DNA of 64,000 bases. It comes from a candidate division WWE3 bacterium RIFCSPHIGHO2_01_FULL_40_23. Its GTDB lineage: Bacteria > Patescibacteriota > WWE3 > UBA101185 > 2-01-FULL-41-18. The translations under genes were made by a program, and so were the position numbers. The notes beneath the pieces are model-generated. The model was not told where the DNA came from. It searched no databases and saw only the letters and a list, made by a program, of their open reading frames with translations. The stretch spans positions 182,422-246,421 of the forward strand of contig MEUZ01000003.1 in NCBI GenBank assembly GCA_001772615.1, given 5' to 3'. Shown here in pieces: positions 45 to 63,095 of this stretch (position 1 is the first letter of the stretch; the number at the start of each line of letters is the position of its first letter).

Positions 45-251
45 ATGAACCCGAAGGAAAAAACTTCCAAAGTCAAGGTATATGTTGATGATAAACTTCA
101 ATACTTCGGCGAGGACAACAAAGAGGGTGTAGTGACCGTTGAAGGCGATAGGTTGTATAAGCTTATCAAACTGCCTGCTCCCGGCAGGCACATCCTAAAG
201 CTTGAATTTGAGGACAACAACACAGAGGTTTACGCCTTCACCTTCGGTTAA
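45..251 (+). CDS. hypothetical small protein (68 aa)
   Basis: Intact ORF upstream of acpS-like gene; no recognisable motif. Confidence 0.3.
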   Translation: MNPKEKTSKVKVYVDDKLQYFGEDNKEGVVTVEGDRLYKLIKLPAPGRHILKLEFEDNNTEVYAFTFG

Positions 252-48845: not shown

Positions 48846-49523
48846 CTAATTGTCGTCTAACCGACCCTCATTGTATTGCCTTTTAATTAATGTGTCAACC
48901 ACGCTTAAAACCAAGCTCAAGGGAAAACCCTGCCTTAAAAGATGGGACCCCATCTTGCTTTTAAATTCTCTGGGAGGAAGTTTTGAGTAAATTTTCAGCT
49001 TTTTGGAAGCGGCACTAATCGCCCGCTCCCTTTCATTTGAAGAAGCCCCTTTCAAAAGCTTTTCAATAAGCTCCTTTTTTATCCCTTTTTTATAAAGCTC
49101 TTGCCTAAGGCGAATTATTCCAAAGGGTTTTCTTCCTCTTATCCTTTGATCCAAAAGCCAGGATGCGAAACTATTATCATCTAAAAGTTTAAGATTTTTT
49201 AACTTGAAAATAATATCTTCAGATAGCTTTTCTTTTGTATCCGCGTCGGTCTCCTTATCTTTATACAAAACCTCCTTAAGTTTATCCCTCACTTCCTTTT
49301 CACTTCTTGGCCTAAAAGAAAGAAAGTTAAGCATTCTGTTAAGAAGATAAGTAAACTTTCCCGCGCGTTTAAGAGTTAGAAATTTCTCCTCTGAAATAAT
49401 AAGCGCGATCTTAAGCTTTTCCTTAACAAAGTCATCCTCCGAGAGCCTAAAGGAAAATTTGTTATCAATAAAAATATCAACGGCTTTATCTTTCTCTCTT
49501 GGGATAATTTTGGTAATGAGCAT
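48846..49523 (-). CDS. recX: RecX family regulatory protein
   Basis: Immediately downstream of recA. Tandem helical RecX-like repeats (LNFLSFRPRSEKEVRDKL...). 225 aa. Confidence 0.65.
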   Translation of the reverse strand: MLITKIIPREKDKAVDIFIDNKFSFRLSEDDFVKEKLKIALIISEEKFLTLKRAGKFTYLLNRMLNFLSFRPRSEKEVRDKLKEVLYKDKETDADTKEKLSEDIIFKLKNLKLLDDNSFASWLLDQRIRGRKPFGIIRLRQELYKKGIKKELIEKLLKGASSNERERAISAASKKLKIYSKLPPREFKSKMGSHLLRQGFPLSLVLSVVDTLIKRQYNEGRLDDN

Positions 49524-49532
49524 TATGTGAAA

Positions 49533-50576
49533 CTATTCACTTTCCTCTTCCCCTTCATTTCCAACTTCCAAAGGGGCTCCGCCTTTTTTAACAATATCCC
49601 TGATTTTTTTCTCCACTTCCGAAGAAAGTTTATGATTTGCCTTTAAGGCCTCTTTTGCGGCTTCCCTCCCCTGCGCAAGTTTCTGGCCGTCATATTCATA
49701 CCATGCCCCACTCTTTTTTATAACCCCCATCTCAACCCCTACATCTACAAGATTTCCGGCTTTACTTATCCCTTCGGAAAACATGATGTCAAACTCCGCA
49801 ACCCTAAAGGGAGGGGCTACTTTATTTTTAACTACCTTCACCTTCACTCTGTTTCCAAGCACTTTGTCCCCGTCTTTAATACTCTCTATCCTTCTAATCT
49901 CAAGCCTTAATGAAGCGTAAAATTTCAAGGCTCTTCCGCCGGGAGTAGTTTCAGGATTTCCAAACATTACTCCAATTTTTTCCCTGATCTGATTTGTAAA
50001 TATAACAGTGCAGTTTGATTTGCTTGTAGCGCCTGTAATTTTTCTTAAAGCCTGGCTCATAAGCCTTGCCTGAAGACCTATAAACTGATCCCCCATTTCC
50101 CCCTCAATTTCAGATCTTGGGACAAGCGCAGCAACCGAATCAATAGCAACAACGTCAACGGCATTTGACCTTATTAAAGTCTCGGCTATCTCAAGCGCCT
50201 GTTCGCCAGTGTCAGGCTGTGAAATCAACAAATCCTCAACATTTACTCCTGTTTTATGCGCGTACACCGGGTCAAAAGCGTGCTCCGCATCAATTAAGGC
50301 GGCAGTTCCACCCGTCTTTTGCGCTTCAGCTATGATGTGCTGGACAAGCGTGGTTTTACCCCCTGATTCGGGACCGAAGATTTCAATTATCCTTCCTCTT
50401 GGAACGCCTCCGACACCCAAAGCAAGATCCAACGCAATCGATCCCGTAGGTATAACCTGTATATCTTTAGTAGCGGCTCCTTCTCCAAGCTTCATGATTG
50501 CACCTTTCCCAAAATTTTTTTCTATCTGGGACATTGCCGACTGAAGAGCTATAAGCTTGTCTTTATCAACGGGCAT
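49533..50576 (-). CDS. recA: recombinase RecA
   Basis: [30 protein letters not shown] Walker A; L1/L2 loop region and C-terminal acidic tail. Confidence 0.9.
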
Positions 50577-50722
50577 AAAAACTTTCCGGGCAGAATTAAA
50601 TATTAATACGGATTATAATATTTTAGGAAGGCGGTGTCTATACTTTTATCCAAATATTATACAAACAAGGCTAGATAAGCAACTTTTAATCCCCCCACCA
50701 TTTTTCTACCACGGCACAAACA

Positions 50723-51115
50723 CTATATCTTTACCGAATTGATCTTCAGCCAATTTGACGTCTCCTTAATCGCACTTCTCTTCTTTATAATATCCGTTAC
50801 CAGGTCATAGAATTTATTATCCCTTGCCCTAATCTCCCATCCATTAAGGTGGAGGAAAATAAAAACGGAGTAAACTGCCGTTCTTTTATTACCATCTACG
50901 AATGGGTGGTTTAATATTAGTGAGTGGATTAATGATGAAGCTTTATCAAAAATTGATTGATAAAGAAATTTACCTCCAAAAGAAGATTTAGGCCTCTGAA
51001 CCGAAGATTCCAGCAACGCAAGGGCCCTTATACCATCTGCTCCTCCATACAGTTCCAAAGATAACTCGTGCAAAAACAGAATTTCTTCCAAAGTAAGAAA
51101 CCTTATTCTAGACAT
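50723..51115 (-). CDS. doc: Doc (death-on-curing) Fic-family toxin
   Basis: Degenerate Fic motif HPFVDGNKR characteristic of Doc; 130 aa. Confidence 0.8.
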   Translation of the reverse strand: MSRIRFLTLEEILFLHELSLELYGGADGIRALALLESSVQRPKSSFGGKFLYQSIFDKASSLIHSLILNHPFVDGNKRTAVYSVFIFLHLNGWEIRARDNKFYDLVTDIIKKRSAIKETSNWLKINSVKI

Positions 51116-51370
51116 TTACTCCTCCGCGAGTCTTTTTAACAAGCTATCGTATTTTTTTGTGAATTCCTGGGCTATCTTAATGAATTTGGGGTTAATGGCC
51201 GTGTCACCTTTTTTAGACAATTTAACAGGAGCAATTGTCAGGACGTCGGATTCTAAGTCCTTCTCAAGCATAACTTCTGAACCCGCACTTAAGTTCATTT
51301 CTCTAAGAATTTCCTTAGGAATTGTTACAGCAACCGAGTTTCCGTTTTTGTACAATTTTTGTGTTATCAT
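51116..51370 (-). CDS. AbrB/MazE (SpoVT-AbrB swapped-hairpin) antitoxin partner of Doc
   Basis: LYKNGNSVAVTIPKEILREMNLSAGSEV matches the SpoVT/AbrB domain; its stop abuts the doc start. Confidence 0.7.
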   Translation of the reverse strand: MITQKLYKNGNSVAVTIPKEILREMNLSAGSEVMLEKDLESDVLTIAPVKLSKKGDTAINPKFIKIAQEFTKKYDSLLKRLAEE

Positions 51371-51373
51371 AAT

Positions 51374-51391
51374 TACATTGTACTGACAATG
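51374..51391. promoter_or_regulatory. inverted-repeat operator candidate upstream of the antitoxin gene
   Basis: ACATTGT-actg-ACAATGT perfect 7-bp palindrome 4 nt upstream of the antitoxin start, with TGTACTGA direct repeats. Confidence 0.4.
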
Positions 51392-51500
51392 TACTGATCG
51401 GTCAAGGTTCTGTTTTAATACCAGCTTCGGTATAATAGGAACATTAAATAATGGCGGGGACTGGGTTTGGAAGAGGGTACTTAAAAAATAGAATTTAATT

Positions 51501-51578
51501 TCGGGGTGTGGCGCAGTTGGCTAGCGCACCAGTATGGGGTACTGGGGGTCGCAGGTTCGAGTCCTGTCACCCCGACCA
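51501..51578 (+). tRNA. tRNA-Pro (anticodon GGG)
   Basis: Cloverleaf: acceptor CGGGGTG/CACCCCG with the C1:G72 pair typical of bacterial tRNA-Pro. D stem GCGC/GCGC. Anticodon stem CCAGT/ACTGG with loop AUGGGGU. T arm GCAGG-TTCGAGT-CCTGT. Discriminator A. Encoded CCA. Length is off by one nt in my hand parse. Confidence 0.8.
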
Positions 51579-51628
51579 TTGAGAAAAACAAGTATGGAAC
51601 TTACTGATCTAGTAAAGAAAAATAGAAT

Positions 51629-51958
51629 ATGGAAACTGCCTTAAAAAGAATAAAGCAGTACTATAATCCGGGTTCATGCTGGATTGCAGAAGTAAACTCA
51701 AAACTAGTTGGCATCCTTACCAGTAAACCGGATAACGTTTATGATAATCAAGAGTTATGCATAGATGTAATTTCGGTTGATCCTGAACATCATAAATCCG
51801 GAATAGGAAGTAAGCTCTTACAAACCGCAGAAAATTATGCAAAAACGCAAGGCTATGAGGCCACGTGGCTATCAGCCAGTGTAGACTTACCTTCCTTCAA
51901 CTGGTACATGAAAACCGGATTTAAAGAAACCAGCTGGAAAATTCTTGTAAAACCGTAA
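51629..51958 (+). CDS. short GNAT-fold acetyltransferase (109 aa, possibly N-terminally truncated)
   Basis: Motif A HHKSGIGSKLL with downstream WYMKTGF; starts only 50 nt after the tRNA. Confidence 0.5.
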   Translation: METALKRIKQYYNPGSCWIAEVNSKLVGILTSKPDNVYDNQELCIDVISVDPEHHKSGIGSKLLQTAENYAKTQGYEATWLSASVDLPSFNWYMKTGFKETSWKILVKP

Positions 51959-52080
51959 GATAATAAACCGTTGCCGACAATAAACCATGTTAAAATCAAC
52001 TTATGATTCTAATACTTGATCGAAATGGAAGATAGCATTCGTAAAAAACTAAAAGAATTAACCGAAAAATTTCTAACAAT

Positions 52081-52356
52081 ATGAGAGGTAAAAAATTTAT
52101 AATTAACTCAACAAAGATGGACTTACATAGGGTAGTAACCGCAACTGGAAATATAAATAAAGAGCTGCCCCAACAATCAGTGATAGAGTTTATGGAACAT
52201 GCTGATAAAGATTTCGGAAAAATAGAATTGACGAAATGGGAACAGACGCTTAGGCAACATCTGCAAAATTTACAAAAGCAATTACCTTATATAAAGGATC
52301 CACATTCCAGGTTAAGATGGGCAGAAGATGTAATGACCATAAGATGTAGGCTTTAA
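52081..52356 (+). CDS. hypothetical small protein (91 aa)
   Basis: Intact ORF; no motif. Confidence 0.3.
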   Translation: MRGKKFIINSTKMDLHRVVTATGNINKELPQQSVIEFMEHADKDFGKIELTKWEQTLRQHLQNLQKQLPYIKDPHSRLRWAEDVMTIRCRL

Positions 52357-52420
52357 AATAGCTCAAAACAACCTGCCCTCTTCTAATCGATGGCTAGCGA
52401 TAGCCGACCAAAGAATTAAA

Positions 52421-53038
52421 ATGAAGCTAACTGAACAAGAAAAAATAACAATCAAAACGTACGATAAAATCGCAGCTGAATGGAGCAAAAAACATCATAT
52501 ACATGATTACTGGAAAGAGGAATTAAAGCTATTTAAGAAATTTCTACCTATAGGAAAAATAATTGATATTGGTTGCGGAGGTGGCAGAGATGCAAAACCT
52601 TTGTCAAATCTAGGCTATAAGTACCTAGGAACAGATATATCAACAGGTTTACTAAAAGAGGCTAAGAAAAATAATCCAGGTATTAAGTTCATATATAAGA
52701 ATTTATATAAACCGAGCTTTAAAAGTAATACATTTGATGGTTTTTGGGCATCTGCAATATTTTTACATATCCCAAAAGACAGAATTAACCTGATATTACA
52801 AAATATAAGAAATTGGATTAAACAAGGTGGGGTAGGTTTTATATCCGTTAAGGAAGGCGGTGGGGAGGTATTAGATAATAGTGACATAGAAGGACCAGTA
52901 AGATTTTGGTCGTACTATAAACTAAGTGAATTCCGAAAATTACTTATGAGTAATAAATTTAAGATTTTAAAAAATTACCGTAAAAAAGTCATTGAGAGTA
53001 CTATTTGGTTAATTTATTTCGTTGAAGTTACAAAATAG
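52421..53038 (+). CDS. class I SAM-dependent methyltransferase
   Basis: IIDIGCGGGRDAKPL motif I; LGTDIS motif II. Confidence 0.6.
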   Translation: MKLTEQEKITIKTYDKIAAEWSKKHHIHDYWKEELKLFKKFLPIGKIIDIGCGGGRDAKPLSNLGYKYLGTDISTGLLKEAKKNNPGIKFIYKNLYKPSFKSNTFDGFWASAIFLHIPKDRINLILQNIRNWIKQGGVGFISVKEGGGEVLDNSDIEGPVRFWSYYKLSEFRKLLMSNKFKILKNYRKKVIESTIWLIYFVEVTK

Positions 53039-54674
53039 CTCAAAACAACCTGTCCCCCGCCGGATGACGATCAAGCAGTTACTACATCAAACTTTTTTTA
53101 TCTTATGCTTACTTACAGCCCTAGCCGGCTTTTTAAGGCTTCGCAACATTTCGGCTTTCAAACTTTATCCTGACTCTTATCAAAGCCTCATTGTTGCAAG
53201 AAACATCAGAGACTTTGGAAACGTTTCAGCAACTTTGGGAGAAGGCGGGATAGTTGAACCGCAGTTCATCGCATGGAGCAGGCCCGGTTACCCTCTTCTA
53301 ATCAATCTTCTAATGCCCCTGGTTCACAACGATGCTTTGTCCGCACAGATAGTCACATTTTTAGCAGGGCTCCTGATGATTCCAGCCGCATATCTTTTTA
53401 TATCAACCCTATACAATTCAAAAAAATCAGGCCTCACTGCCGCACTCCTAACCGCCCTTTTGTTTAACCTAACGGTCTGGGGCGGCTTTATACTTACAGA
53501 AACTACAGGAATCCTTTTTTTAATCCTCTTTTTGTACAGCCTTTTTAAATCCTTTAAATCCGAAACATCACTCGCTAACCCGAAAGATTATTTGACAGGA
53601 TTCCTTTTTGCCGCCGCAGTGATGACACGTTACGAATACATAATTCTTATTATCCCAATCATTTTTATTACCTTTAGCAAAAGCCAAAAGCCCGTTACCA
53701 GGCTCTTCAATATTCTCGTCTTTTCCTTTTTCACAGTATCGGTTGTTGCCGGCCTTCTTTTCCCGCTAGATAACATCTTACCCCCAATCAAAGAACAGAT
53801 GTCATACCCCTTGTACATAGCTTTAGGCATTCTTGGGTTTACATTAATCATTGGTATTCTAAATAAATCAATTCCACAGGAAATAAAGCAAAAAGTTTTT
53901 AGAGTACTTCGAGAATCCGCACAAAAAGCACCGATCCTTATAGCAATAACTCTGGCAATCCTTTACCTAGCAAATAGATCGGGGCTCCTGGTACTTTCAG
54001 GAATTTGGGAATTTGCCAAAACCGACTTGCTTTTAACGCTTGCATTCCTTATAGGTTCACGCCAAATGACAAAAGAGAAAAATCCGGATATTCCACTGAT
54101 AATCTTTACACTAGCCTCAATAACTTTTCTTGGGTTTATTTACTACAATGTTAACCCCTTGGCCCAAAGATATTTCACCCACCTTTTGCCATTTCTATTA
54201 ATACCTGCCTCCAAAGCTACGGAAAACTTAAAAAGCAAGGCTCTACTTACAATCCTAATCCTGGCCGCAATCCTTCAAACAGGCATCACATTTAACGGGG
54301 CGAAAAACTGGCAAAATGGAGATTGGCTTATGGAAAGTTACGAAGAAAAATCGGCCAAAATACTTAGCCAGAAAGTTAAAGACAAAAACACAATAATCGT
54401 AACCTCTTTTCCAGCCGCTTATTTTTACTTTACCAACCTAACTACCCAGGGCGTCACCGATTCTCCTCCCTACATTTACTTTCAAACAAACAACAGACCG
54501 ATTTTGATAGTAGAAGACATGGCGATGCGAGACGTTTATCCAAACTTCACAAATTTTTTACACAAGGACCTGAAAGACAAAAAAGTGGCTGAATACTTAG
54601 TTGGTAAAACCTACCATTACAGATTCAACGACCTAAATGAAGATAGACCTGTAGTTCTATACAAATATAACTAA
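53022..54674 (+). CDS. polytopic membrane protein, probable GT-C fold glycosyltransferase (ArnT/PMT-like)
   Basis: About 13 TM helices with a periplasmic first loop (PDSYQSLIVARNIRDFG) and a C-terminal soluble domain; overlaps the upstream MTase by 17 nt. Confidence 0.4.
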   Translation: MKLQNSSKQPVPRRMTIKQLLHQTFFILCLLTALAGFLRLRNISAFKLYPDSYQSLIVARNIRDFGNVSATLGEGGIVEPQFIAWSRPGYPLLINLLMPLVHNDALSAQIVTFLAGLLMIPAAYLFISTLYNSKKSGLTAALLTALLFNLTVWGGFILTETTGILFLILFLYSLFKSFKSETSLANPKDYLTGFLFAAAVMTRYEYIILIIPIIFITFSKSQKPVTRLFNILVFSFFTVSVVAGLLFPLDNILPPIKEQMSYPLYIALGILGFTLIIGILNKSIPQEIKQKVFRVLRESAQKAPILIAITLAILYLANRSGLLVLSGIWEFAKTDLLLTLAFLIGSRQMTKEKNPDIPLIIFTLASITFLGFIYYNVNPLAQRYFTHLLPFLLIPASKATENLKSKALLTILILAAILQTGITFNGAKNWQNGDWLMESYEEKSAKILSQKVKDKNTIIVTSFPAAYFYFTNLTTQGVTDSPPYIYFQTNNRPILIVEDMAMRDVYPNFTNFLHKDLKDKKVAEYLVGKTYHYRFNDLNEDRPVVLYKYN

Positions 54675-54747
54675 CAAAAAGTTGTTTTTGCCAACTTGAC
54701 AGTGTTAGAATATAGGCTTATCTGGGTATTTTAAACGGACAGGCACA

Positions 54748-55692
54748 ATGAAATTAATAGTACAAATACCCTGCTACAACGAGGAAAAAACACTCCCTCT
54801 TGTTCTTTCCACGATCCCTAAAAGCATACAGGGTATATCTGAAATTGAAACTTTAGTAATAGATGACGGATCTTCAGACAAAACATCAGAAATCGCAAGA
54901 AATCTGGGAGTAAATCATATCGTAAGACACAAACAAAATAAAGGCTTGGCGGCAGCCTTCGCGGCCGGCATCAACACCGCTTTAAAACTTGGCGCGGATA
55001 TCATAGTAAATACAGACGGAGACAACCAATACCCCCAACAAGAGATTCCAAGACTAATAAAACCAATTTTGGACGGCACTCACGATATGGTAATAGCGGA
55101 TAGACAAGTCACAAAGGTAAAGGAATTTAGCCCGATTAAAAAACTTTTGCAGATATGGGGAAGCAGCCTGGTTAGAGCCCTTTCGGGAACCAAAGTACCC
55201 GATGCCCCGAGCGGCTTTCGGGCTTTCTCAAAAGAAGCGGCGATGCAGTTAAACATAGTTACCGATTTTAGTTATGTAATTGAAACTGTGGTTCAGGCAG
55301 GCAGGAAAAGGATTGCAACAACACATGTACAAGTTGTAACAAATCCAAAAACCCGTGAATCAAGATTATTTAAAAGTATTTTTGAGCACATTAAAAGATC
55401 GGCTGCCGCTGTCCTAAGAAGTTACGCGATGTATACACCGTTTAGAATCTTTCTTGTGATGGGAGTTGTTGTACTTGCAATCGGTGCAATCCCTTATTTA
55501 TGGTTTGGAGTTCAATCAGCTCTTATGGGAGAGCCGCTTGGCGGGCATGTCCAATCACTTATCTTCGGAGCCGTATTTATAATAATGGGTTTTATGTTCA
55601 TTGTGATTGGAATCATCGCAGACCTTCTGGCTATTAATAGAAGGTTGCTGGAAGACGCTCTCTACCGCCTTAAGCAGATGGAGTTGAAATGA
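54748..55692 (+). CDS. GT2 polyprenyl-phosphate sugar synthase (Dpm1/ArnC/GtrB-like) with C-terminal TM anchor
   Basis: IPCYNEE, DDGSSDKT and DGDNQ (DXD) motifs; two C-terminal TM helices as in GtrB/ArnC. Confidence 0.7.
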   Translation: MKLIVQIPCYNEEKTLPLVLSTIPKSIQGISEIETLVIDDGSSDKTSEIARNLGVNHIVRHKQNKGLAAAFAAGINTALKLGADIIVNTDGDNQYPQQEIPRLIKPILDGTHDMVIADRQVTKVKEFSPIKKLLQIWGSSLVRALSGTKVPDAPSGFRAFSKEAAMQLNIVTDFSYVIETVVQAGRKRIATTHVQVVTNPKTRESRLFKSIFEHIKRSAAAVLRSYAMYTPFRIFLVMGVVVLAIGAIPYLWFGVQSALMGEPLGGHVQSLIFGAVFIIMGFMFIVIGIIADLLAINRRLLEDALYRLKQMELK

Positions 55693-56759
55693 GTGAGAAA
55701 TCAAAAATAAAGCTGTTATTCATTACCAGAAAATATCCCCCTTCAGTTGGAGGGATGGAAAAAGTAAGCTATTGCCTTGGCGAAGAGTTAAAAAAGAAGG
55801 TTGATACAAAGATAATAGCGTGGGGGAAGTCTCAAAAATGGCTACCTTACTTTCTGCCGAAAGCCTTCTTTGAGGCATTGATAATAATTTATAGAGATGG
55901 GATCACAAACATTCACTTGGGTGATGGTTTATTAGCACCACTTGGGCTCCTTCTTAAAGCGATTACTGGAAAGAAAGTTACAGTAACCATCCACGGTTTA
56001 GACATTACTTATAAAAACTCTCTTTACCAGCTTGTAGTTCCCTGGTGTGTAAGTAAGCTGGATAAAGTAATTTGTGTCAGTGAAGCGACTTTAAAAGAAT
56101 GTGTTAAGCGTGGAATTCCAAAAGAAATGAGCACAGTTATCCACTGGGGAATTTATCCCGAAGAATACAAAATCAGTGCAACCCGAGCGGATCTGGAAAA
56201 TATTGCAGGCAGGGATTTAGATGGCAAGAAAGTAATAATAACGGTAGGAAGACTAGTCAAAAGAAAGGGGGTCTATTGGTTCATTGATAATGTATTACCA
56301 AAACTGGATCATAATTTTGTGTACCTGATCATAGGAGATGGACCTGAAAGAGCGAGGATAGAAGATTTGATAAAAACCTTAAACCTTAAAGATAGGGCGT
56401 TACTCCTGGGCAGAGTTTCCGACCATGATTTGAAAATAATTTACAACACCGCTGACATCTTCGTCATGCCAAATATTGAAGTAGAAGGAGATATTGAGGG
56501 GTTTGGGATAGTGGCAATGGAAGCAGCATCTACCGGTATGTTGATTGTGGCCTCTTATGTAGATGGTATGAAAGATTTACTGAACGAAAAAGTGGGTATA
56601 CCAGTTAAGGAAAGGGTAGATTTCGCTCCAAGAATAAAAAAAGCTCTCAAGGACAGAGAGCAAAATTCTAACATAAGCAAAAACGTAGCTAGTTACATAC
56701 AAGACAACTTTAGTTGGACAAGTATTAGAGAAGAATACATCAAAGCGGCAGTTCGATAG
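55689..56759 (+). CDS. GT4 family glycosyltransferase (Glycos_transf_1)
   Basis: EGFGIVAMEAASTGMLIV (E-X7-E region) and GT-B architecture. Confidence 0.7.
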   Translation: MSEKSKIKLLFITRKYPPSVGGMEKVSYCLGEELKKKVDTKIIAWGKSQKWLPYFLPKAFFEALIIIYRDGITNIHLGDGLLAPLGLLLKAITGKKVTVTIHGLDITYKNSLYQLVVPWCVSKLDKVICVSEATLKECVKRGIPKEMSTVIHWGIYPEEYKISATRADLENIAGRDLDGKKVIITVGRLVKRKGVYWFIDNVLPKLDHNFVYLIIGDGPERARIEDLIKTLNLKDRALLLGRVSDHDLKIIYNTADIFVMPNIEVEGDIEGFGIVAMEAASTGMLIVASYVDGMKDLLNEKVGIPVKERVDFAPRIKKALKDREQNSNISKNVASYIQDNFSWTSIREEYIKAAVR

Positions 56760-56761
56760 AT

Positions 56762-57610
56762 ATGGAAGAGAAAACAAAAACTACAATAGAACAAGTAGAG
56801 CGCTACTGGTCAAAACAAAGCGAAATGTATCTTAATACAGACGAGAGGGGGTTTGGAGCAGTTATATATTCTGGGATGCCTATTTGGTTCAACAGCTTCT
56901 TTAACCATTACCAGCAAAAAGCTTTTATGACTCTAACTGAAGGAATTAACTTCAGCGGTCTTTCAGCATTAGACGTTGGGTCAGGCGTTGGAAGGTGGTC
57001 CCACATTCTGTATAAAAAGGGTTGCAAGGTTATTGGTATTGATTTCGAGAAAAGTAGGTTACAAAAAGCCAAAAAGAACCCCAATTTGAAGAACATCACC
57101 TTTAAAAACATGTCAGTGGTTAATTTAGAATTCGAAGATAATATTTTTGATTTTACTAATTCAATCACCGTACTACAACACATACCACATGAGAACAAGA
57201 GCACAGCTATAAAAGAAGTATGTAGAGCTACTAAAAAAGGTGGTTATATATTAATAATTGAGTTAATTGATCTTTTCGACGATGCGCCACATGTTTTTCC
57301 CCTATCAGACAAAGGATGGATAGACATATTCGCAAACAACGGCTGTGAACTAATAAAAAAAGTTGGGTGTGAATTTTCTCCACTTTTGAGGATACTAAGA
57401 TACATTAGATACGTTCTAACAAAGAAAAAGAATATAGATAAGAGTACAGGAAGAATAACTTTGAGCAAATTTGAGTTACTTATTATGAGAGTAGTTATCC
57501 TGTTATCTTATCCCATAGAAGAAGTTTGCGTCAGTATTACACCGGCTAAGTACGCCAGACATGGAGGCTATCTTTTTAAAAAGTTGAGCAAACGGAAGAA
57601 GGAATTCTAA
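56762..57610 (+). CDS. class I SAM-dependent methyltransferase
   Basis: ALDVGSGVGRWS motif I; VIGIDFE motif II. Confidence 0.65.
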   Translation: MEEKTKTTIEQVERYWSKQSEMYLNTDERGFGAVIYSGMPIWFNSFFNHYQQKAFMTLTEGINFSGLSALDVGSGVGRWSHILYKKGCKVIGIDFEKSRLQKAKKNPNLKNITFKNMSVVNLEFEDNIFDFTNSITVLQHIPHENKSTAIKEVCRATKKGGYILIIELIDLFDDAPHVFPLSDKGWIDIFANNGCELIKKVGCEFSPLLRILRYIRYVLTKKKNIDKSTGRITLSKFELLIMRVVILLSYPIEEVCVSITPAKYARHGGYLFKKLSKRKKEF

Positions 57611-57663
57611 CAAAAGGTAGATGAAGCGAGATTAGATTTTACAGATAGATACTTGCAAATATT

Positions 57664-58503
57664 ATGTCCAAGGTCCAAATCACAACAGTTATTACAAGGT
57701 ACTCCGAGCCCGATCATATAGTGAGAGACTGTCTAAACTCATTAAAATTGCAGCGTAATGTCAAAGGAGACGTACTCTTCTTAGACCAAAAGGAATCCAG
57801 AGAAATTAAGGATTGGCTAAAAACACAAAATACAGAAAATGTAAGGTTTCAGTATATAAGTATTGAACCGAGGTCACTGTCGTACGCAAGAAATCAGGGC
57901 ACCAAACTAGCAAGTGGTAACTTAGTCGCATTCAGTGATCCAGATTGTGTCCTTAAGCCTAACTGGATGGAAGAACTCATAACAACTTTTAGAAAATTTA
58001 ATGCTTCAATAGTAGGAACGAAAATCACTCCTGTTTGGGGTGCGGAAACTAGCTGGTATCACAAATCAAAAGTGATCCAGGAATTCTACGCTTTGCTCGA
58101 TTTATCCCAGAATTACAAATTGGTAAGTAAGGTTATAGGAGCAAGTTTCGCCCTGGATAAGAATAAAATTAAATCCTCTCCATATTTTGATGAAGGGCTT
58201 GGAAGGAAAGAGGGGATGTTTCTAGGTGGTGAAGAAACAGACTTATGTAAAAGGGTTGTGACTAGTGGGGGGATCGTAGCTTATACTGCAAATACCCAAG
58301 CTCTACATAAAATTCCCAAAGAAAGAATGAACCTCAAGTGGTTGTTTAAGATGGCTTATTTTGGCGGTATAACTAGGGCGATGAGGGGTGGTAAAGTCGA
58401 AACCTTTACCACAAGTTATAACCTTAGAGATAAGGCTGCCATAAGCCTCGTATTACCCTTCTTTGCTTATGGTTATTTTAAAACTAAAATCAAAATCAGC
58501 TGA
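57664..58503 (+). CDS. GT2 family glycosyltransferase
   Basis: VITRYSEP, LVAFSDPDCV (DXD) and rhamnosyl/galactosyl-transferase-like layout. Confidence 0.6.
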   Translation: MSKVQITTVITRYSEPDHIVRDCLNSLKLQRNVKGDVLFLDQKESREIKDWLKTQNTENVRFQYISIEPRSLSYARNQGTKLASGNLVAFSDPDCVLKPNWMEELITTFRKFNASIVGTKITPVWGAETSWYHKSKVIQEFYALLDLSQNYKLVSKVIGASFALDKNKIKSSPYFDEGLGRKEGMFLGGEETDLCKRVVTSGGIVAYTANTQALHKIPKERMNLKWLFKMAYFGGITRAMRGGKVETFTTSYNLRDKAAISLVLPFFAYGYFKTKIKIS

Positions 58504-58545
58504 TTTTTAGAAATCAATTTGATGACCAAACCATAGTATAAGCAA

Positions 58546-60186
58546 GTGCAACTTAGTAATATGAGTTCTCTAGTAAGCCTGATGTCAAAAAGAATTTTCA
58601 TTTTGTTACCATTCTTTGTATTCGGAGGATTTTTGATAGCTTATACCACCATTTCAGCCCAAATCCCTGTTGATGGAGACGGTGGATTTCATGCGGGTGT
58701 TGTTGAATATATAGCCAAAAACGGAACACTAACCGACGTACATCCATATGTTCTGGTAGACCGATACGAACACCTCCCACTCTTTTACCCAAAACTTTTT
58801 TACGTAGAAATGGCTTCTCTATTCACGTTGTTAGGAGATACAACTTTAAAAGCTGTTGTTCCAACAATCGGTATATTTATTGCTATCTTCATCTTTCTTG
58901 TGTCCAGAAGAATTTCAACTAGCAAAGCCGTGCCAATAATTACCAGCTTGGTTGCTCTATCAAGCTTTGGTCTAATAACAAACTCGGTTGATATGTTCCG
59001 TATGGAAACAATGGTCATACTGTTGGGCTTAGCTTCCATCTATTGTTTTTACATGTTTACTCAAGTAAGATCACTCAATTGGTTTGTATGTTCAGTTATT
59101 TTTTTGGCAGCTTGTATTTCTACAAAACAACAAGCGTACATTATTCTCCCGATTTTTCCAATAATAGCAATTAATAAATTACATACTGCTTTTAAAACTA
59201 AGTTGTTTTACACCATAATATTATTTTTCTTTAGCTTTCTTTTAGCTGCACCAATCCTGACTAATCAGTTCCTAGGCACTGGTACACTTTTTTATCCAGG
59301 CGTTCCGTTTATTAACTCCATTGAGCGTCTCACCACTAGTGCTTTAGATATTATAGGACATGAGACGGGTGAAGGTTGGAAAAGGTATGCATTTGAATCG
59401 GACAGAGGTCAGAATTTAAAAATAAAATTTAGTAACCCCGCAAATCACCTCTCATTTCTAAATCCCTTTAGTACTCTCACTACAAAACCATTCTCGGCGG
59501 GTATAAACATACTTCTCATACTTGGATGCTTTATTCTAATTATGAAAGGAAATTTATTTATAGTTATATTTCTCGTTATACAACAACTTCTACTCCACAA
59601 ATTCCCTATTGAGAGATATTACATCCTCAGTCAGATTCTAGCGTCAATGATAATAGGCGTCAGCTTTGAATTCTTTTTTCGATTTCAAAAATTAAAATTC
59701 ATTAATGCTCTTATACTAAGCTTTATTCTAATTGGGGTCATCTCATCAACAGTGTACACACTCTCATCATCTTCTTCCATTCCAGATTATTCGTACGGAA
59801 GGCATTACCCGAACAGGCTAAAAGCAACAATTGAATCCGGTAGGTGGTTGGAGAAAAACTCACCTAAAAACGCAACAGTTATTACACCTCGTGCTTACTT
59901 AGACTCCTATTATGCAAAGCGAGATAGCCTTTGGTTAAACCAGTTGGGGGGTGAAGAAATTTATGAAGCCTTCTTAAACAACGATGTCAACAAAATCTAC
60001 ACAATTTCCAAGAGCTATCCAAGTAGTTACATTCTATTGCCTGAGTTCTGGATTGTTAACGGTTCTGCTGACGGTATGTGGATTCCTTTTATCGAAAGGG
60101 AAACAGTCAACAAGATTAAGGAAAGAAATGATTACTTTGAGCCAGTTTACGATGATGGCCTAGTAAGCATTTTCAAAGTTAAATGA
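58546..60186 (+). CDS. polytopic membrane protein with C-terminal extracytoplasmic domain, probable GT-C fold glycosyltransferase or oligosaccharyl-transferase/polymerase-like
   Basis: At least 11 TM helices, an acidic first loop (PVDGDGGFHAG), and a soluble C-terminal domain of about 170 aa. Confidence 0.4.
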   Translation: MQLSNMSSLVSLMSKRIFILLPFFVFGGFLIAYTTISAQIPVDGDGGFHAGVVEYIAKNGTLTDVHPYVLVDRYEHLPLFYPKLFYVEMASLFTLLGDTTLKAVVPTIGIFIAIFIFLVSRRISTSKAVPIITSLVALSSFGLITNSVDMFRMETMVILLGLASIYCFYMFTQVRSLNWFVCSVIFLAACISTKQQAYIILPIFPIIAINKLHTAFKTKLFYTIILFFFSFLLAAPILTNQFLGTGTLFYPGVPFINSIERLTTSALDIIGHETGEGWKRYAFESDRGQNLKIKFSNPANHLSFLNPFSTLTTKPFSAGINILLILGCFILIMKGNLFIVIFLVIQQLLLHKFPIERYYILSQILASMIIGVSFEFFFRFQKLKFINALILSFILIGVISSTVYTLSSSSSIPDYSYGRHYPNRLKATIESGRWLEKNSPKNATVITPRAYLDSYYAKRDSLWLNQLGGEEIYEAFLNNDVNKIYTISKSYPSSYILLPEFWIVNGSADGMWIPFIERETVNKIKERNDYFEPVYDDGLVSIFKVK

Positions 60187-60237
60187 TAAAAATTTAACAG
60201 TATAACCGACAGGGAATTTTAGATATATAAATTTGTT

Positions 60238-61665
60238 ATGATAACAGAAACATATAAAGGTACATCTTACTTATTACTCTCTTCTTTATTTTTTATTGCT
60301 TCTGGTTACTTGATAAACATATTTCTTGGAAGAAGGCTAGGACCAGAGTTGTACGGTGTCTATGGTGTTGTAATCGCCTTTTGGAGCGGGGTGAACCTTA
60401 TTCTTACAGCAGGGCTTCCGCAAGCTGTTTCCAAATTCGTCTCGGAAGATGAAAAAAACGCAGAAAGCATCCTTAAAAGCGCCATTAATCTTCAGGCTAT
60501 CGGAGTTCTTATAATCGGAGTGATTTATTATCTACTTGCAGAAACCGTCGCATCGGCCTTCAAAGACCCGACGCTAATACCTTATTTAAAACTCTCATCA
60601 TTTATCTTTCCTTTTTACAGCTTCTATTCCATTTACACCAGCTATTACAACGGCCTTCACGCATTTAAAAAGCAATCTTTCATGACCATCATTTATTCAC
60701 TAGCTAAACTGGTTTCAATAATCGGCCTGTCAATTAACTTTAAACTTTATGGAGCAATCTTTGGCTTTATCATTGCTCCGACTGTCGCATTACTCACCGG
60801 CTTTCACTTCCCAAAAACCGTAACACACCAAATCTTTCCATATAAAAAGTTACTTCTTTTTTCTCTACCTCTTATCGGCTTCACTGTTTTTGCAACACTT
60901 CAGCAATCTATTGATCTCTTTTTAGTTAAAGCTCTAATCCATTCAGGTGAATCGGCCGGTTTCTACACAGCAGTTCAAAATATCTCTAAAATCCCCTTAT
61001 TTGCCTTAAGCGCTTTCTCGCTTGTGTTATTTCCAACCATTTCAAGAAGCGTTGCCCAAAATCAGCATGAGAAAGCCACAGCTTTAATTCAACACTCCCT
61101 AAGGCTCGTTTTGCTGGTGCTCACCCCTGGCATACTTTTAATATCGGCAACAAGCAAAGAACTTGTAACCTTACTTTTTTCCAAAACTTATCTTCCCGCC
61201 GCCTATCCTCTCTCAATCTTAATAATCGGTTTTGGCTTCTTAACCCTTTCACACATCCTCTCAAATATCTTAAGCGGCAGCGGCTCTCCTAAAACTCCCC
61301 TTTATATTTCACTCATTGGAGCCTTTCTTAGCGGGTTTTTTTGCTATCTACTCATTCCAGAATTCGGTTTGGTAGGGGCTGCTCTTGCAAGCACCCTGGC
61401 AAGCGGTATCGGATTCCTCCTCTTAGCGCTACTCGTTTACAAAAAATTTAAAGTCTTCACTTCTTTTACAAGCTTTGGAAAAGTGCTTCTTGCTTCATCT
61501 ATAGTCTTTTTCATCACCAAGGCTATAAACCCCTCGCCGCTAAAACTTATTCTTCTTTATCCGCTTATGTTTACAATTTATACAATAATACTTATCCTGG
61601 TGAAGGAAATCTCAAGACAAGACCTAAACTATTTAAAAGACGCGGTGTTTAAAAGAAAGCTATGA
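60238..61665 (+). CDS. Wzx-like polysaccharide/oligosaccharide flippase (MOP superfamily, polysaccharide biosynthesis protein)
   Basis: About 14 TM helices and the Polysacc_synt-like N-terminal pattern (LLSSLFFIASGYLINIFLGRRLGPELYGVYG). Confidence 0.6.
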   Translation: MITETYKGTSYLLLSSLFFIASGYLINIFLGRRLGPELYGVYGVVIAFWSGVNLILTAGLPQAVSKFVSEDEKNAESILKSAINLQAIGVLIIGVIYYLLAETVASAFKDPTLIPYLKLSSFIFPFYSFYSIYTSYYNGLHAFKKQSFMTIIYSLAKLVSIIGLSINFKLYGAIFGFIIAPTVALLTGFHFPKTVTHQIFPYKKLLLFSLPLIGFTVFATLQQSIDLFLVKALIHSGESAGFYTAVQNISKIPLFALSAFSLVLFPTISRSVAQNQHEKATALIQHSLRLVLLVLTPGILLISATSKELVTLLFSKTYLPAAYPLSILIIGFGFLTLSHILSNILSGSGSPKTPLYISLIGAFLSGFFCYLLIPEFGLVGAALASTLASGIGFLLLALLVYKKFKVFTSFTSFGKVLLASSIVFFITKAINPSPLKLILLYPLMFTIYTIILILVKEISRQDLNYLKDAVFKRKL

Positions 61666-63095
61666 CTGTCCATAAAAAGGCCATAAAACTTGCTGTCTTT
61701 GTGCTAACCGGGCTGTTGGGGCTTTATGTTGTAATTCAAAACATAAACCCATTCGGTAAGGTGGCCGCATACAGCCTCGCTACCAAGGGTTTGTCCCAGC
61801 TTTCCCCTAAAGATAGAGTTACACAACAAGACGGGGTCCAAAAGCAAACCGGAGATTTAATATACTTCACTACCGATTTTCCTACCGAGTTTGATGAAGC
61901 TAAAGTCACAATCACCTTTAAAAATTCAACCCCTAACCAGCAGATTCATTTAGGTTTTAAGGATGAAGAAAAATACCACTACCAGACAAAGCCCATTGAT
62001 AATTCAAGTATTTCGGTTTTGGGGTGGAGCACAATCGGCGCAAACCCTGTGCTTTATCAAAAAAACAAAGTTTATGCAGATACTAACGAATTTCTTACTA
62101 CTCCCCCAACAGACGCCATAATCGGACTTCTTAATTTTGACAGGAACAACTTCACAACTGAAAGCATTAGACTGAACGACTACAAACCAAGTGATACTTT
62201 AACCGTCATTTCTTCACCCTTAAGAGGAAATACCACAATGTATGTTTACCTAAAAGATGAACCCTTTAGAATGTGGATCAAAAAGCAGGATTTGAATTGG
62301 TACAAAGGGCCTGATCCCTTGACAATCAAAGTTTATGATTCAGCCGGAGATCTTGTTTACACCCAAACACAAGATGATGATGGCATTGCCGACGCTTCAA
62401 AAGAAGTATTGCCTGAAAAAGAGATCTACGTGGAAAACCCCGGCCCGGGCCAGCCCGAAGAGGGCGTCTATAAAATAATATTTGAAAGCCAGGACTTATT
62501 AATAAAAGAGATAAAAACAAATCTTCATAAAATAGTATTTGAAGGCCCGCTGTTTGCCGCCGGAAACAGCAAGGTTTACAAAGGGGCAGTAGAAAATATG
62601 GAGCCTCTAACTTTGTTTTCCAATGCTTTGCTTCTTAAGGCTCTTACTCTGCATAATGAGACCACCCAAAGTATTCGGCTCAATGACAGGGACTTCCCTC
62701 TTGTCAAAGCGCATACAACCGAGGTTATAACTCCAAAAATAGGTGAATTTACTTTGACAGCGCCAAAAAGTGACGTGATACTAAAGGGGATTGGGTATTT
62801 TGCCTTTACTAAAGAGCAATTTTTCCTCCCAACCTCATACCATTTTTTAAACATAGAGGAACCGTCGGATGTACAGTGGGCTGATTACATAATCTCAAAT
62901 TACAAAGCTCCAAGAATAGAGGGAGACTGGAAAGTAGCTGAACAGACATTTGATCTTGCAAAAGCCGTGCCGGATAAGAATAAGCTTAGCTGGCTGATCA
63001 AATCCCCCAATCTAAAAGAGTCTTCAGGAAGCGTAGAAATCAAGGACATTGAAGTGACCTATACCAAAAAGCCGATGATTAAAAAGCTGTTCTAA
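61662..63095 (+). CDS. hypothetical membrane-anchored extracytoplasmic protein
   Basis: N-terminal TM, beta-rich body, no motif; translationally coupled to the flippase. Confidence 0.35.
   Translation: MTVHKKAIKLAVFVLTGLLGLYVVIQNINPFGKVAAYSLATKGLSQLSPKDRVTQQDGVQKQTGDLIYFTTDFPTEFDEAKVTITFKNSTPNQQIHLGFKDEEKYHYQTKPIDNSSISVLGWSTIGANPVLYQKNKVYADTNEFLTTPPTDAIIGLLNFDRNNFTTESIRLNDYKPSDTLTVISSPLRGNTTMYVYLKDEPFRMWIKKQDLNWYKGPDPLTIKVYDSAGDLVYTQTQDDDGIADASKEVLPEKEIYVENPGPGQPEEGVYKIIFESQDLLIKEIKTNLHKIVFEGPLFAAGNSKVYKGAVENMEPLTLFSNALLLKALTLHNETTQSIRLNDRDFPLVKAHTTEVITPKIGEFTLTAPKSDVILKGIGYFAFTKEQFFLPTSYHFLNIEEPSDVQWADYIISNYKAPRIEGDWKVAEQTFDLAKAVPDKNKLSWLIKSPNLKESSGSVEIKDIEVTYTKKPMIKKLF

What the first reader, a model, noticed from the sequence alone, without database searches (positions are those of the whole stretch)
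50723..51391. Doc toxin with AbrB/MazE-fold antitoxin and a palindromic operator, abutting tRNA-Pro
A complete type II TA module is present: an antitoxin of the SpoVT/AbrB fold followed by Doc with the HPFVDGNKR motif. A perfect ACATTGT-actg-ACAATGT palindrome plus TGTACTGA direct repeats lies 4 nt upstream of the antitoxin start, consistent with autorepression. The module sits 110 bp from a tRNA gene, a classic hotspot for acquired DNA. Doc phosphorylates EF-Tu. In a reduced genome a retained TA pair is notable and may stabilise the adjacent island.
Basis: partly seen in the sequence, partly recalled or inferred. Interest (0 to 1): 0.5.

Follow-up and report, generated by a model that had tools for sequence, protein, structure and literature searches.

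The report
Ordinary Doc toxin–antitoxin cassette insertion
This is an intact but ordinary two-gene "addiction" module (a Doc toxin and its AbrB/MazE-type antidote with its own promoter and repressor-binding repeats) that one groundwater WWE3 bacterium acquired between its tRNA-Pro and recA genes; its closest relatives lack it.

Summary
On the minus strand, an 84-aa AbrB/MazE-type antitoxin (51116-51370) abuts a 130-aa Doc toxin (50723-51115) with an intact HPFVDGNKR motif. The repeats lie just upstream of the antitoxin start. tRNA-Pro(GGG) is 131 nt away.

This is a known kind of module: the composite MazE-Doc type (TasAB 2006, TIGR02609 "doc_partner", E. faecalis Phd-Doc structure 9VZC).

Three points need correcting:
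- **Operator.** Four independent homologous loci, with proteins about 45-53% identical, conserve the tandem 11-bp direct repeat TCAGTACAnnGTCAGTA(C/T)A. They do not conserve the palindrome.
- **Promoter.** The repeats fill the spacer and -10 of a TTGACC-17-TACAAT promoter that ends 6 nt before the ATG. There is no Shine-Dalgarno sequence, so a leaderless mRNA is predicted. That style appears common in this genome.
- **Not "retained".** Five relatives (RecA 89-92% identical) keep tRNA-Pro beside recA and lack the module. The slot is empty or holds other cargo.

I found no integrase, no att repeat and no evidence of an island.

Verdict: a new member of a known kind, of low interest.

The parts
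50723..51115 (-). Doc toxin gene (130 aa), catalytic motif H70-P-F-V-D74-G-N76-K77-R78
   Evidence: Pfam Fic scores 52.4 bits against a cut-off of 24. TIGR01550 DOC_P1 scores 57.1 against 38.65. The best solved-structure matches are Doc of 9vzc_A and P1 Doc 3k33/3dd7. The motif residues are invariant across a 29-sequence family alignment. The AF2 model has pLDDT 95.8 and TM 0.85-0.89 to P1 Doc.
51116..51370 (-). AbrB/MazE-type antitoxin gene (84 aa): N-terminal DNA-binding half-barrel (residues about 1-50), a flexible linker (52-56), and a C-terminal helical tail (about 58-84) that is predicted to bind Doc
   Evidence: Pfam MazE_antitoxin scores 39.2 bits against a cut-off of 24.7. The best NCBIfam model is TIGR02609 doc_partner, at 42.3 bits, which is below its cut-off of 55.9. 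The family profile matches full-length 9vzc_B at E 5.5e-7. The AF2 model has pLDDT 82 and beta-beta-alpha-beta-beta plus two helices. Top Foldseek hits are MazE, VapB, SpoVT and AbrB.
51119..51125 (-). Shine-Dalgarno sequence GGAGGAG for Doc, lying inside the last codons of the antitoxin gene; the antitoxin TAA stop abuts the Doc ATG
   Evidence: Read directly from the sequence. Strong Shine-Dalgarno sequences are rare in this window: 4 of 47 long ORFs.
51379..51397 (-). Predicted operator: two direct TCAGTACA units 11 bp apart (minus strand TCAGTACAttgTCAGTACA)
   Evidence: The block is invariant in L256, L257 and L258, and 15 of its 16 specified bases match in L271, within upstream DNA that otherwise does not align. 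It occurs only once in the window. The N-terminal 20 residues of the antitoxin subfamily are invariant.
51374..51393 (.). It overlaps the operator repeats and is specific to this locus.
   Evidence: It is not conserved in L256, L257 or L258, where only 4 of 8 arm positions stay complementary.
51377..51405 (-). Sigma-70-like promoter: TTGACC (51405-51400), 17-nt spacer, TACAAT (51382-51377). The -10 hexamer ends 6 nt before the ATG, so a leaderless mRNA starting at about 51370 is predicted.
   Evidence: The promoter scan scores 10 of 12. L257 (TTGACA-17-TACAAT, then 6 nt to ATG) and L271 (TTGACG-17-TATAAT, then 8 nt to ATG) have the same layout. L256 and L258 have TGgTATAAT followed by 6 nt to ATG. 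No Shine-Dalgarno sequence precedes the antitoxin gene.
51502..51578 (+). tRNA-Pro(GGG), divergent neighbour. This conserved gene marks one edge of the variable slot.
   Evidence: ARAGORN and Rfam tRNA at 60 bits. The same tRNA lies beside recA in the relatives L247, L249, L251, L252 and L254.
50577..50722 (-). Spacer between the Doc stop and recA. It contains recA's own conserved promoter, TAGACA-17-TATAAT (50640-50612), and marks the other edge of the insertion. No terminator was detected.
   Evidence: One search found the promoter. About 105 nt upstream of recA aligns in six relatives. The RNA fold z-score is 0.45 and no terminator-like site lies on the minus strand.

Best explanation
This is a functional, self-contained type II toxin-antitoxin cassette of the composite MazE(AbrB)-Doc type. 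It was inserted in one WWE3 (Patescibacteria) lineage into the short divergent spacer between tRNA-Pro(GGG) and recA.

**Proposed mechanism**
- A sigma-70-like promoter (TTGACC-17-TACAAT) drives a bicistronic mRNA that is predicted to be leaderless.
- The antitoxin is translated from the 5'-terminal AUG. Doc is translated from a strong Shine-Dalgarno sequence embedded in the antitoxin's last codons.
- The antitoxin dimerises through its AbrB-like N-terminal domain. It binds two TCAGTACA sites one helical turn apart, which occupy the promoter spacer and the -10 hexamer. Binding there represses the operon.
- The antitoxin's C-terminal helical tail wraps Doc and neutralises it.
- If the antitoxin is depleted, free Doc (a Fic-fold kinase with the K-containing HxFxDGNKR motif) phosphorylates EF-Tu and stalls translation.

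**Shown here:** gene identities, folds, intact motifs, promoter and operator conservation, and absence of the module from relatives.

**Inferred:** DNA binding, leaderless initiation, neutralisation, the EF-Tu target and any toxicity.
For: - **Family and fold assignments:**
- **Catalytic motif:** invariant across 29 homologues.
- **Pairing is the norm:** 118 of 135 Doc-relative loci have an AbrB-type gene immediately upstream.
- **DNA-binding end and operator conserved together:** the N-terminal 20 residues of the antitoxin are invariant in 49 homologues about 50% identical overall. The TCAGTACAnnGTCAGTA(C/T)A block is conserved in four independent loci whose flanking DNA does not align.
- **The repeats are a separate module from the -10:** in L256 and L258 they sit 11 bp further from the -10 and ATG.
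- **Family-wide trend:** perfect inverted repeats of 8 nt or more occur upstream of 18 of 65 family antitoxins, against about 1.35 expected.
- **Promoter:**
- **Leaderless style fits the genome:** 11 of 51 genes have a -10-like hexamer 4-9 nt before the start, against 0-4 at control offsets. Only 4 of 47 long ORFs have a strong Shine-Dalgarno sequence.
- **Absence from relatives:**
- **Homologous experimental system:** the E. faecalis AbrB-like Phd has been shown to bind a promoter palindrome and to insert its C-terminal helix into Doc, and EFDoc kinase activity was assayed with EF-Tu as substrate (PMC13034048).
- **Toxicity precedent:** TasB of the MazE-Doc type is toxic in E. coli (PMC1626090).
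Against: - There is no experimental or transcript evidence for this locus.
- All 15 contigs carrying the module are at least 99.9% identical, so selection on it cannot be measured.
- The antitoxin falls below the TIGR02609 trusted cut-off.
- Of the three DNA-contact residues of EFPhd (K8, R10, N14), the Arg aligns with Tyr7 here. Its recognition details therefore cannot simply be transferred.
- In E. faecalis the toxin-antitoxin complex did not bind DNA and the operator is a single palindrome. The two-site model used here is an extrapolation.
- One homologous cassette (L257) has Arg in place of the catalytic His, so members of this subfamily can carry inactivated toxins.
Confidence: 0.78

Rival explanations
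1. One reading: the perfect palindrome TACATTGT-cagt-ACAATGTA is the operator, bound symmetrically by one antitoxin dimer. The direct repeats are incidental.
For: AbrB/MazE dimers are two-fold symmetric. The homologous E. faecalis antitoxin binds a single 10-bp palindrome. The window has a perfect 8-nt inverted repeat, 11 of 13 when extended. Palindromes are enriched upstream of family members in general.
Against: In L256, L257 and L258 only 4 of 8 arm positions remain complementary, while both TCAGTACA units are invariant. Those antitoxins have an identical N-terminal 20 residues, so they should read the same DNA.
Confidence: 0.12
2. The module is a retained, ancestral component that stabilises an adjacent tRNA-linked genomic island.
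For: It lies next to a tRNA gene. The DNA on the tRNA's 3' side (a glycan-synthesis cluster, 51.6-63 kb) differs in every relative examined, so the neighbourhood is flexible.
Against: Five relatives with RecA 89-92% identical lack the module. The nearest Doc homologue anywhere is only 54% identical. No integrase was found, and the tRNA 3' end is not repeated in the window. No direct repeats flank the module. It sits on the 5' side of the tRNA, separated from the variable cluster by the tRNA itself.
Confidence: 0.05
3. The cassette acts mainly as an anti-phage abortive-infection or defence module rather than as a selfish addiction element.
For: The Doc core hits the PADLOC candidate defence family PDC-S23 at E 5e-13. 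Relatives are common on phage and plasmid records. Homologous loci often sit beside other toxin-antitoxin genes such as PIN and ParE, as in defence islands.
Against: The PADLOC hit covers only the Fic core of proteins of 312-331 aa, which have a different architecture. No other defence genes neighbour the module in this window. No phage data exist for WWE3.
Confidence: 0.1
4. The pair is an inactive remnant: the toxin is disabled or the operon is silent.
For: Chromosomal toxin-antitoxin modules often decay. One homologous cassette, L257, has lost the catalytic His.
Against: Both ORFs are full length. The catalytic motif, the promoter hexamers, the operator and the Shine-Dalgarno sequence are all intact. 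The Doc model has pLDDT 95.8. The one apparent truncated allele (L012) is a scaffold gap of Ns.
Confidence: 0.08

Closest known systems
E. faecalis chromosomal 'Phd'-Doc (PDB 9VZC, 9VX7, 9VYB; PMC13034048, NAR 2026)
   Same: It is the best solved-structure match for both proteins: Doc at E 1.9e-9 and the antitoxin family profile at E 5.5e-7 over the full length. It has the same architecture: an AbrB/MazE-like beta-sheet DNA-binding N-domain and a C-terminal helix that inserts into Doc. Its operator also lies beside the -10 box. Two of its three DNA-contact residues (Lys and Asn of the K-x-x-x-x-G-N-S hairpin) are conserved here.
   Different: Sequence identity is low. The E. faecalis operator is a single 10-bp perfect palindrome, and the toxin-antitoxin complex did not bind DNA. 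Here there are two direct 8-nt units 11 bp apart. The contact Arg aligns with Tyr here. The host is a Patescibacterium and the mRNA is predicted to be leaderless.
TasA-TasB of Bacillus thuringiensis pGI1, the 'composite mazE-doc' toxin-antitoxin family (PMC1626090, 2006); NCBIfam TIGR02609 doc_partner with TIGR01550 DOC_P1
   Same: The gene order and domain pairing are the same: a MazE/AbrB-type antitoxin upstream of Doc. The distribution is wide and patchy across plasmids and chromosomes.
   Different: TasAB is plasmid-borne in a Firmicute. The window antitoxin scores 42.3 bits against TIGR02609, below the trusted cut-off of 55.9, so it belongs to a divergent subfamily centred on Patescibacteria.
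Phage P1 Phd-Doc (PDB 3K33, 3DD7, 3KH2)
   Same: The Doc fold matches (TM 0.85-0.89, rmsd 2.0 A) and the catalytic HxFxD(A/G)NKR motif aligns residue for residue. From my own knowledge: the P1 operator has two adjacent antitoxin sites, and Doc bridges the Phd dimers bound there (conditional cooperativity). The two-site layout here resembles that arrangement.
   Different: The P1 antitoxin has the unrelated Phd/YefM fold, and its operator sites are palindromes. Doc is only 22-23% identical. P1 is a plasmid prophage, whereas this module is a chromosomal insertion.

Membership tests
Doc toxins (Fic/Doc superfamily; TIGR01550 DOC_P1) | Sequence-model match above the curated cut-offs | tested here: met
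   PF02661 scores 52.4 bits against 24. TIGR01550 scores 57.1 against 38.65 and covers 9-123 of 130 residues.
Doc toxins (Fic/Doc superfamily; TIGR01550 DOC_P1) | Doc-type active-site motif HxFx(D/N)(A/G)NKR, with Lys where AMPylating Fic proteins have Gly | tested here: met
   H70-P-F-V-D-G-N-K77-R78 aligns to P1 Doc HIFNDANKR. F72, D74, N76, K77 and R78 are invariant and H70 nearly invariant among 29 homologues.
Doc toxins (Fic/Doc superfamily; TIGR01550 DOC_P1) | Small single-domain all-alpha Fic fold like P1 Doc | tested here: met
   The AF2 model has pLDDT 95.8. Foldseek top hits are 3dd7_A and 3k33_A, with TM 0.84-0.89 and rmsd 2.0 A over about 124 columns.
Doc toxins (Fic/Doc superfamily; TIGR01550 DOC_P1) | Kinase activity on EF-Tu and growth arrest on expression | not testable with these tools
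   No tuf gene lies in the window. This needs an in vitro phosphorylation assay and a toxicity assay.
AbrB/MazE/SpoVT-type antitoxins (PF04014) | Sequence-model match above the curated cut-off | tested here: met
   PF04014 scores 39.2 bits against 24.7, covering residues 8-52.
AbrB/MazE/SpoVT-type antitoxins (PF04014) | Swapped-hairpin half-barrel topology (beta-beta-alpha-beta-beta) in the N-terminal domain | tested here: met
   The AF2 model has strands at 6-9, 12-15, 33-38 and 43-48 and a helix at 19-24. The top eleven Foldseek hits include MazE, VapB1, SpoVT and Sso7c4, at probability 0.94-1.0 but E only 0.01-0.25 because the domain is small. A monomer model cannot show the dimeric barrel.
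TIGR02609 doc_partner (putative addiction module antidote) | Score above the NCBIfam trusted cut-off | tested here: not met
   It scores 42.3 bits against a cut-off of 55.9, although this is the best-scoring NCBIfam model and covers 5-82 of 84 residues. I treat the protein as a divergent relative, not an equivalog member.
Type II toxin-antitoxin operon | Two small co-directional genes, antitoxin first, closely coupled | tested here: met
   The antitoxin TAA stop abuts the Doc ATG, and a Shine-Dalgarno sequence for Doc lies inside the antitoxin's 3' end. The same arrangement, with gaps from -4 to +6 nt, is seen in most homologous loci.
Type II toxin-antitoxin operon | Autoregulation through an operator in its own promoter | tested here: inconclusive
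   Comparative evidence is strong: the repeats are conserved inside the promoter in five loci. Binding and repression were not tested and cannot be tested with these tools.
Type II toxin-antitoxin operon | Patchy, mobile distribution | tested here: met
   The module is absent from five close relatives at the same site. Relatives of Doc occur on 669 plasmid and 59 phage records.
tRNA-integrated genomic island | Integrase gene and a direct repeat of the tRNA 3' end bounding the element, which lies on the tRNA's 3' side | tested here: not met
   No integrase domain was found in the ORFs from 51.6 to 63 kb. The tRNA 3' 23-mer occurs only once in the window, even with up to 3 mismatches allowed. 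The module lies on the 5' side of the tRNA. No direct repeats flank it.

The most novel reading that the evidence does not exclude
A Patescibacteria-centred MazE-Doc subfamily may travel as a fully portable unit: a -10 hexamer placed to give a leaderless transcript, a fixed 19-bp tandem operator, and an antitoxin whose N-terminal 20 residues never change. That design would need neither a host Shine-Dalgarno interaction nor host regulators, so it could establish itself in ultra-small genomes that make little use of Shine-Dalgarno sequences.

In this genome the cassette is co-directional with recA, about 80 nt upstream of the recA promoter, and no terminator lies between them. De-repression of the cassette could therefore also raise recA transcription.
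Probability: 0.3. Interest if true: 0.35.

Novelty: new member of a known kind. Interest (0 to 1): 0.15.

Why it matters
The practical value is small.

- **A ready operator candidate.** It pairs a conserved 19-bp DNA site with an invariant 20-residue AbrB-type reading head. That could be tested directly and compared with the single-palindrome mode just described for E. faecalis Phd-Doc.
- **Gene flux in a reduced genome.** The tRNA-Pro/recA junction is a small variable slot in this WWE3 clade: empty, holding a toxin-antitoxin module, holding trx-dsbD, or holding an unknown ORF.
- **No change to current understanding.** Nothing here alters how Doc systems are understood.

Tried and rejected
- **Genome-contig scan with RecA.** It returned only distant phyla, because the peptide patterns saturated at 600 rows. 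It was useless for synteny. I replaced it with a RecA protein search plus exact-protein contig look-ups.
- **Apparent truncated Doc allele in L012** (a 96-aa gene call). This is a scaffold gap of Ns, not a mutation.
- **Population variation.** All 15 contigs carrying the exact proteins are at least 99.9% identical, so no selection test is possible.
- **Insertion scars.** I looked for flanking direct repeats or an att site around the cassette and found only 10-13-nt AT-rich chance matches. The tRNA 3' end is not repeated.
- **Base composition.** GC is 35-38% against about 40% for the surroundings, too small a difference to call.
- **Terminator between Doc and recA.** None was found, and the fold z-score is 0.45.
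- **Rfam scan of 50400-51800.** Only the tRNA matched.
- **Operator pattern in viral contigs.** The 12 hits have no AbrB-type gene downstream and are about what chance would give.
- **Third half-site ATTGTAC inside the antitoxin coding region (51350-51356).** It reflects codon choice for Leu-Tyr and is not conserved in homologues.
- **Other toxin-antitoxin pairs in the window.** None was recognised among ten small ORFs.
- **EF-Tu target residue.** It could not be checked because tuf is not in the window.

Full report
**1. What is there**

All genes below are on the minus strand unless stated.
- An 84-aa ORF at 51116-51370. Its TAA stop directly abuts the ATG of the next ORF.
- A 130-aa ORF at 50723-51115.
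- recA at 49533-50576, followed by recX at 48846-49523.
- tRNA-Pro(GGG) at 51502-51578 on the plus strand, divergent from the pair.

The exact proteins carry NCBI names from candidate division WWE3 bacterium RIFCSPHIGHO2_01_FULL_40_23. They occur on many groundwater contigs that are at least 99.9% identical over this region. One contig, L012, seemed to encode a truncated 96-aa toxin. That is a scaffold gap of Ns.

**2. Identity of the two proteins**

*The 130-aa protein is a Doc.*
- Pfam Fic scores 52.4 bits against a cut-off of 24.
- TIGR01550 DOC_P1 scores 57.1 against 38.65.
- The best solved relatives are the Doc of 9VZC and P1 Doc.
- The motif H70-P-F-V-D-G-N-K-R78 aligns residue for residue with P1 Doc HIFNDANKR. 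F72, D74, N76, K77 and R78 are invariant and H70 nearly invariant in a 29-member alignment.
- An AlphaFold model (pLDDT 95.8) superposes on P1 Doc at TM 0.85-0.89 and rmsd 2.0 A.
- The Lys in place of the second Gly of the canonical Fic motif is the signature of the kinase-type Doc enzymes. This point rests on established knowledge, not on a test here.

*The 84-aa protein is an AbrB/MazE/SpoVT-type antitoxin.*
- PF04014 scores 39.2 bits against a cut-off of 24.7.
- Its best NCBIfam model is TIGR02609 "doc_partner", but at 42.3 bits it is below the 55.9 cut-off.
- A profile of 49 homologues matches the full length of 9vzc_B, the antidote of the E. faecalis Doc complex, at E 5.5e-7.
- The AlphaFold model (pLDDT 82) shows beta-beta-alpha-beta-beta, a disordered linker at 52-56 and two C-terminal helices.
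- Its best structural neighbours are MazE, VapB, SpoVT and AbrB.

**3. The pairing is the norm, not a novelty**

I examined 135 metagenomic and viral loci that encode Doc relatives and have an ORF immediately upstream. In 118 of them that ORF is an AbrB-type antitoxin homologous to this one. A few have ribbon-helix-helix antitoxins instead, yet keep the same C-terminal "..LY+ELAK" tail.

The architecture was described in 2006 as the composite mazE-doc system TasAB (PMC1626090). A member was solved in 2026 (PMC13034048). Doc relatives annotated with AbrB-type, CopG-type or Phd partners occur on 669 plasmid and 59 phage records.

**4. Promoter and operator**

The minus strand reads TTGACC-GA-TCAGTACA-TTG-TCAGTACA-ATGTAATT-ATG.
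- The scan finds TTGACC-17-TACAAT, a 10 of 12 match.
- The -10 hexamer ends 6 nt before the ATG, and no Shine-Dalgarno sequence is present. I therefore predict a leaderless mRNA.
- This is not special to the antitoxin. Only 4 of 47 long ORFs in the window have a strong Shine-Dalgarno sequence.
- In addition, 11 of 51 genes have a -10-like hexamer ending 4-9 nt before the start codon, against 0-4 at control offsets.
- Doc, by contrast, has GGAGGAG inside the last codons of the antitoxin gene.

It has 8-nt perfect arms, or 11 of 13 when extended. The comparative data, however, point to the direct repeats.
- The antitoxin subfamily is about 50% identical overall, yet its first 20 residues, M[LI]TQKLYKNGNSVAVTIPKE, are invariant.
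- Four independent loci from other Patescibacteria (L256, L257, L258, L271) carry TCAGTACAnnGTCAGTA(C/T)A just upstream of the gene. The surrounding DNA does not otherwise align.
- In those loci the palindrome arms are only 4 of 8 complementary.
- In L256 and L258 the repeat block sits 11 bp further from the -10 and ATG. It is therefore a module distinct from the promoter hexamers.
- All five loci place a -10 hexamer 6-8 nt before the ATG.
- The motif is unique in the window.
- Hits in viral contigs are unrelated.

**5. Genomic context**

- *Relatives lack the module.* Five relatives (RecA 89-92% identical) keep the block recA-recX-rny-hyp-ymdB-HU, or as much of it as their contigs reach. They also keep tRNA-Pro(GGG) upstream of recA. 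None has the module.
- *The tRNA-to-recA interval varies.*

| Relative | tRNA-to-recA interval |
|---|---|
| L247 | 151 nt |
| L252 | 217 nt |
| L249 | 335 nt, including an N gap |
| L251 | a 2.3-kb trx-dsbD pair |
| L254 and L255 | a 126-aa hypothetical ORF |

- *Insertion boundary.* The roughly 105 nt upstream of recA, including its TAGACA-17-TATAAT promoter, is conserved in all of them. That puts the recA-side insertion boundary just past the Doc stop. The tRNA-side spacer does not align.
- *No mobility signatures.* I found no flanking repeats, no second copy of the tRNA 3' end and no integrase among the neighbouring genes. Those neighbours form a glycan-synthesis cluster that itself differs in every relative.
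- *Other checks.* GC is only slightly low. No terminator separates Doc from recA.
- *Nearest homologue.* The closest Doc homologue anywhere is 54% identical.
- *Conclusion.* The module is a lineage-specific acquisition in a small variable slot. It is not a retained ancestral gene pair, and nothing ties it to stabilising an island.

**6. Mechanism proposed**

The antitoxin and Doc are transcribed from the promoter at 51377-51405. Antitoxin dimers occupy the two TCAGTACA sites, which lie one helical turn apart and cover the spacer and the -10 hexamer. That would block RNA polymerase. The C-terminal helices of the antitoxin hold Doc inactive. Loss of the antitoxin frees Doc to phosphorylate EF-Tu.

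Gene identity, folds, motifs, conservation of the promoter and operator, and absence from relatives are shown by the analyses above. DNA binding, the leaderless start, neutralisation, the target and toxicity are inferred from homology to the P1 and E. faecalis systems.

**7. Verdict**

This is a new member of a known kind, and its interest is low.

Noticed in passing
L257:2756-3151 (Doc) with L257:2475-2492 (operator): A homologous Patescibacteria cassette has Arg in place of the catalytic His (NRPFLDGNKR). Its antitoxin, promoter and operator repeats are intact. The toxin may be naturally inactivated.
   Followed up: partly
L112, L128, L150, L153, L170, L208 (ORFs immediately upstream of Doc relatives): These loci have ribbon-helix-helix-like antitoxins instead of AbrB-like ones, yet end in the same '..LY+ELAK' C-terminal tail. 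Different DNA-binding domains seem to have been swapped onto a constant Doc-neutralising tail.
   Followed up: no
L247:4850-5000, L252:172-388, L249:4666-5000, L251:2577-5000, L254:4438-5000; window 50577-51501: The spacer between tRNA-Pro(GGG) and recA is a small variable slot in this WWE3 clade. It is empty, or holds the Doc module, a trx-dsbD pair, or a 126-aa unknown ORF. The genes on the tRNA's 3' side differ in every relative.
   Followed up: yes
window-wide; e.g. starts at 6608, 15779, 21896(-), 34635(-), 40412(-): Strong Shine-Dalgarno sequences precede only 4 of 47 long ORFs. In 11 of 51 genes a -10-like hexamer ends 4-9 nt before the start codon, against 0-4 at control offsets. Leaderless mRNAs therefore appear common in this genome.
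   Followed up: partly
window 50577-50660 (minus strand, upstream of recA): Besides the recA promoter TAGACA-17-TATAAT, a block ATTAGTATT...TGCCC between the -10 hexamer and the recA ATG is conserved in all six relatives aligned. Its function is unknown.
   Followed up: no
window 51629-63095 (+): The tRNA's 3' side carries GNAT, three methyltransferases, PMT_2, two GT2, GT4 and a Polysacc_synt/MurJ-type flippase. This is a surface-glycan cluster with no mobility genes, and it is not syntenic with any relative examined.
   Followed up: partly
window 45-251 (+): This ORF matches the C-terminal Thioredoxin_10 domain. That domain is also found in the DsbD-like gene that sits between tRNA-Pro and recA in the relative L251. 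Here it lies 50 kb from recA, which suggests rearrangement between the genomes.
   Followed up: no
L012:4400-4460: A public scaffold of the same population has a run of Ns inside Doc. This produces a spurious 96-aa gene call with no Pfam hit.
   Followed up: yes
window 50723-51115 (-): The Doc core (residues 35-100) matches the PADLOC candidate defence family PDC-S23 (312-331 aa proteins) at E 5e-13. The similarity is at the domain level only.
   Followed up: no
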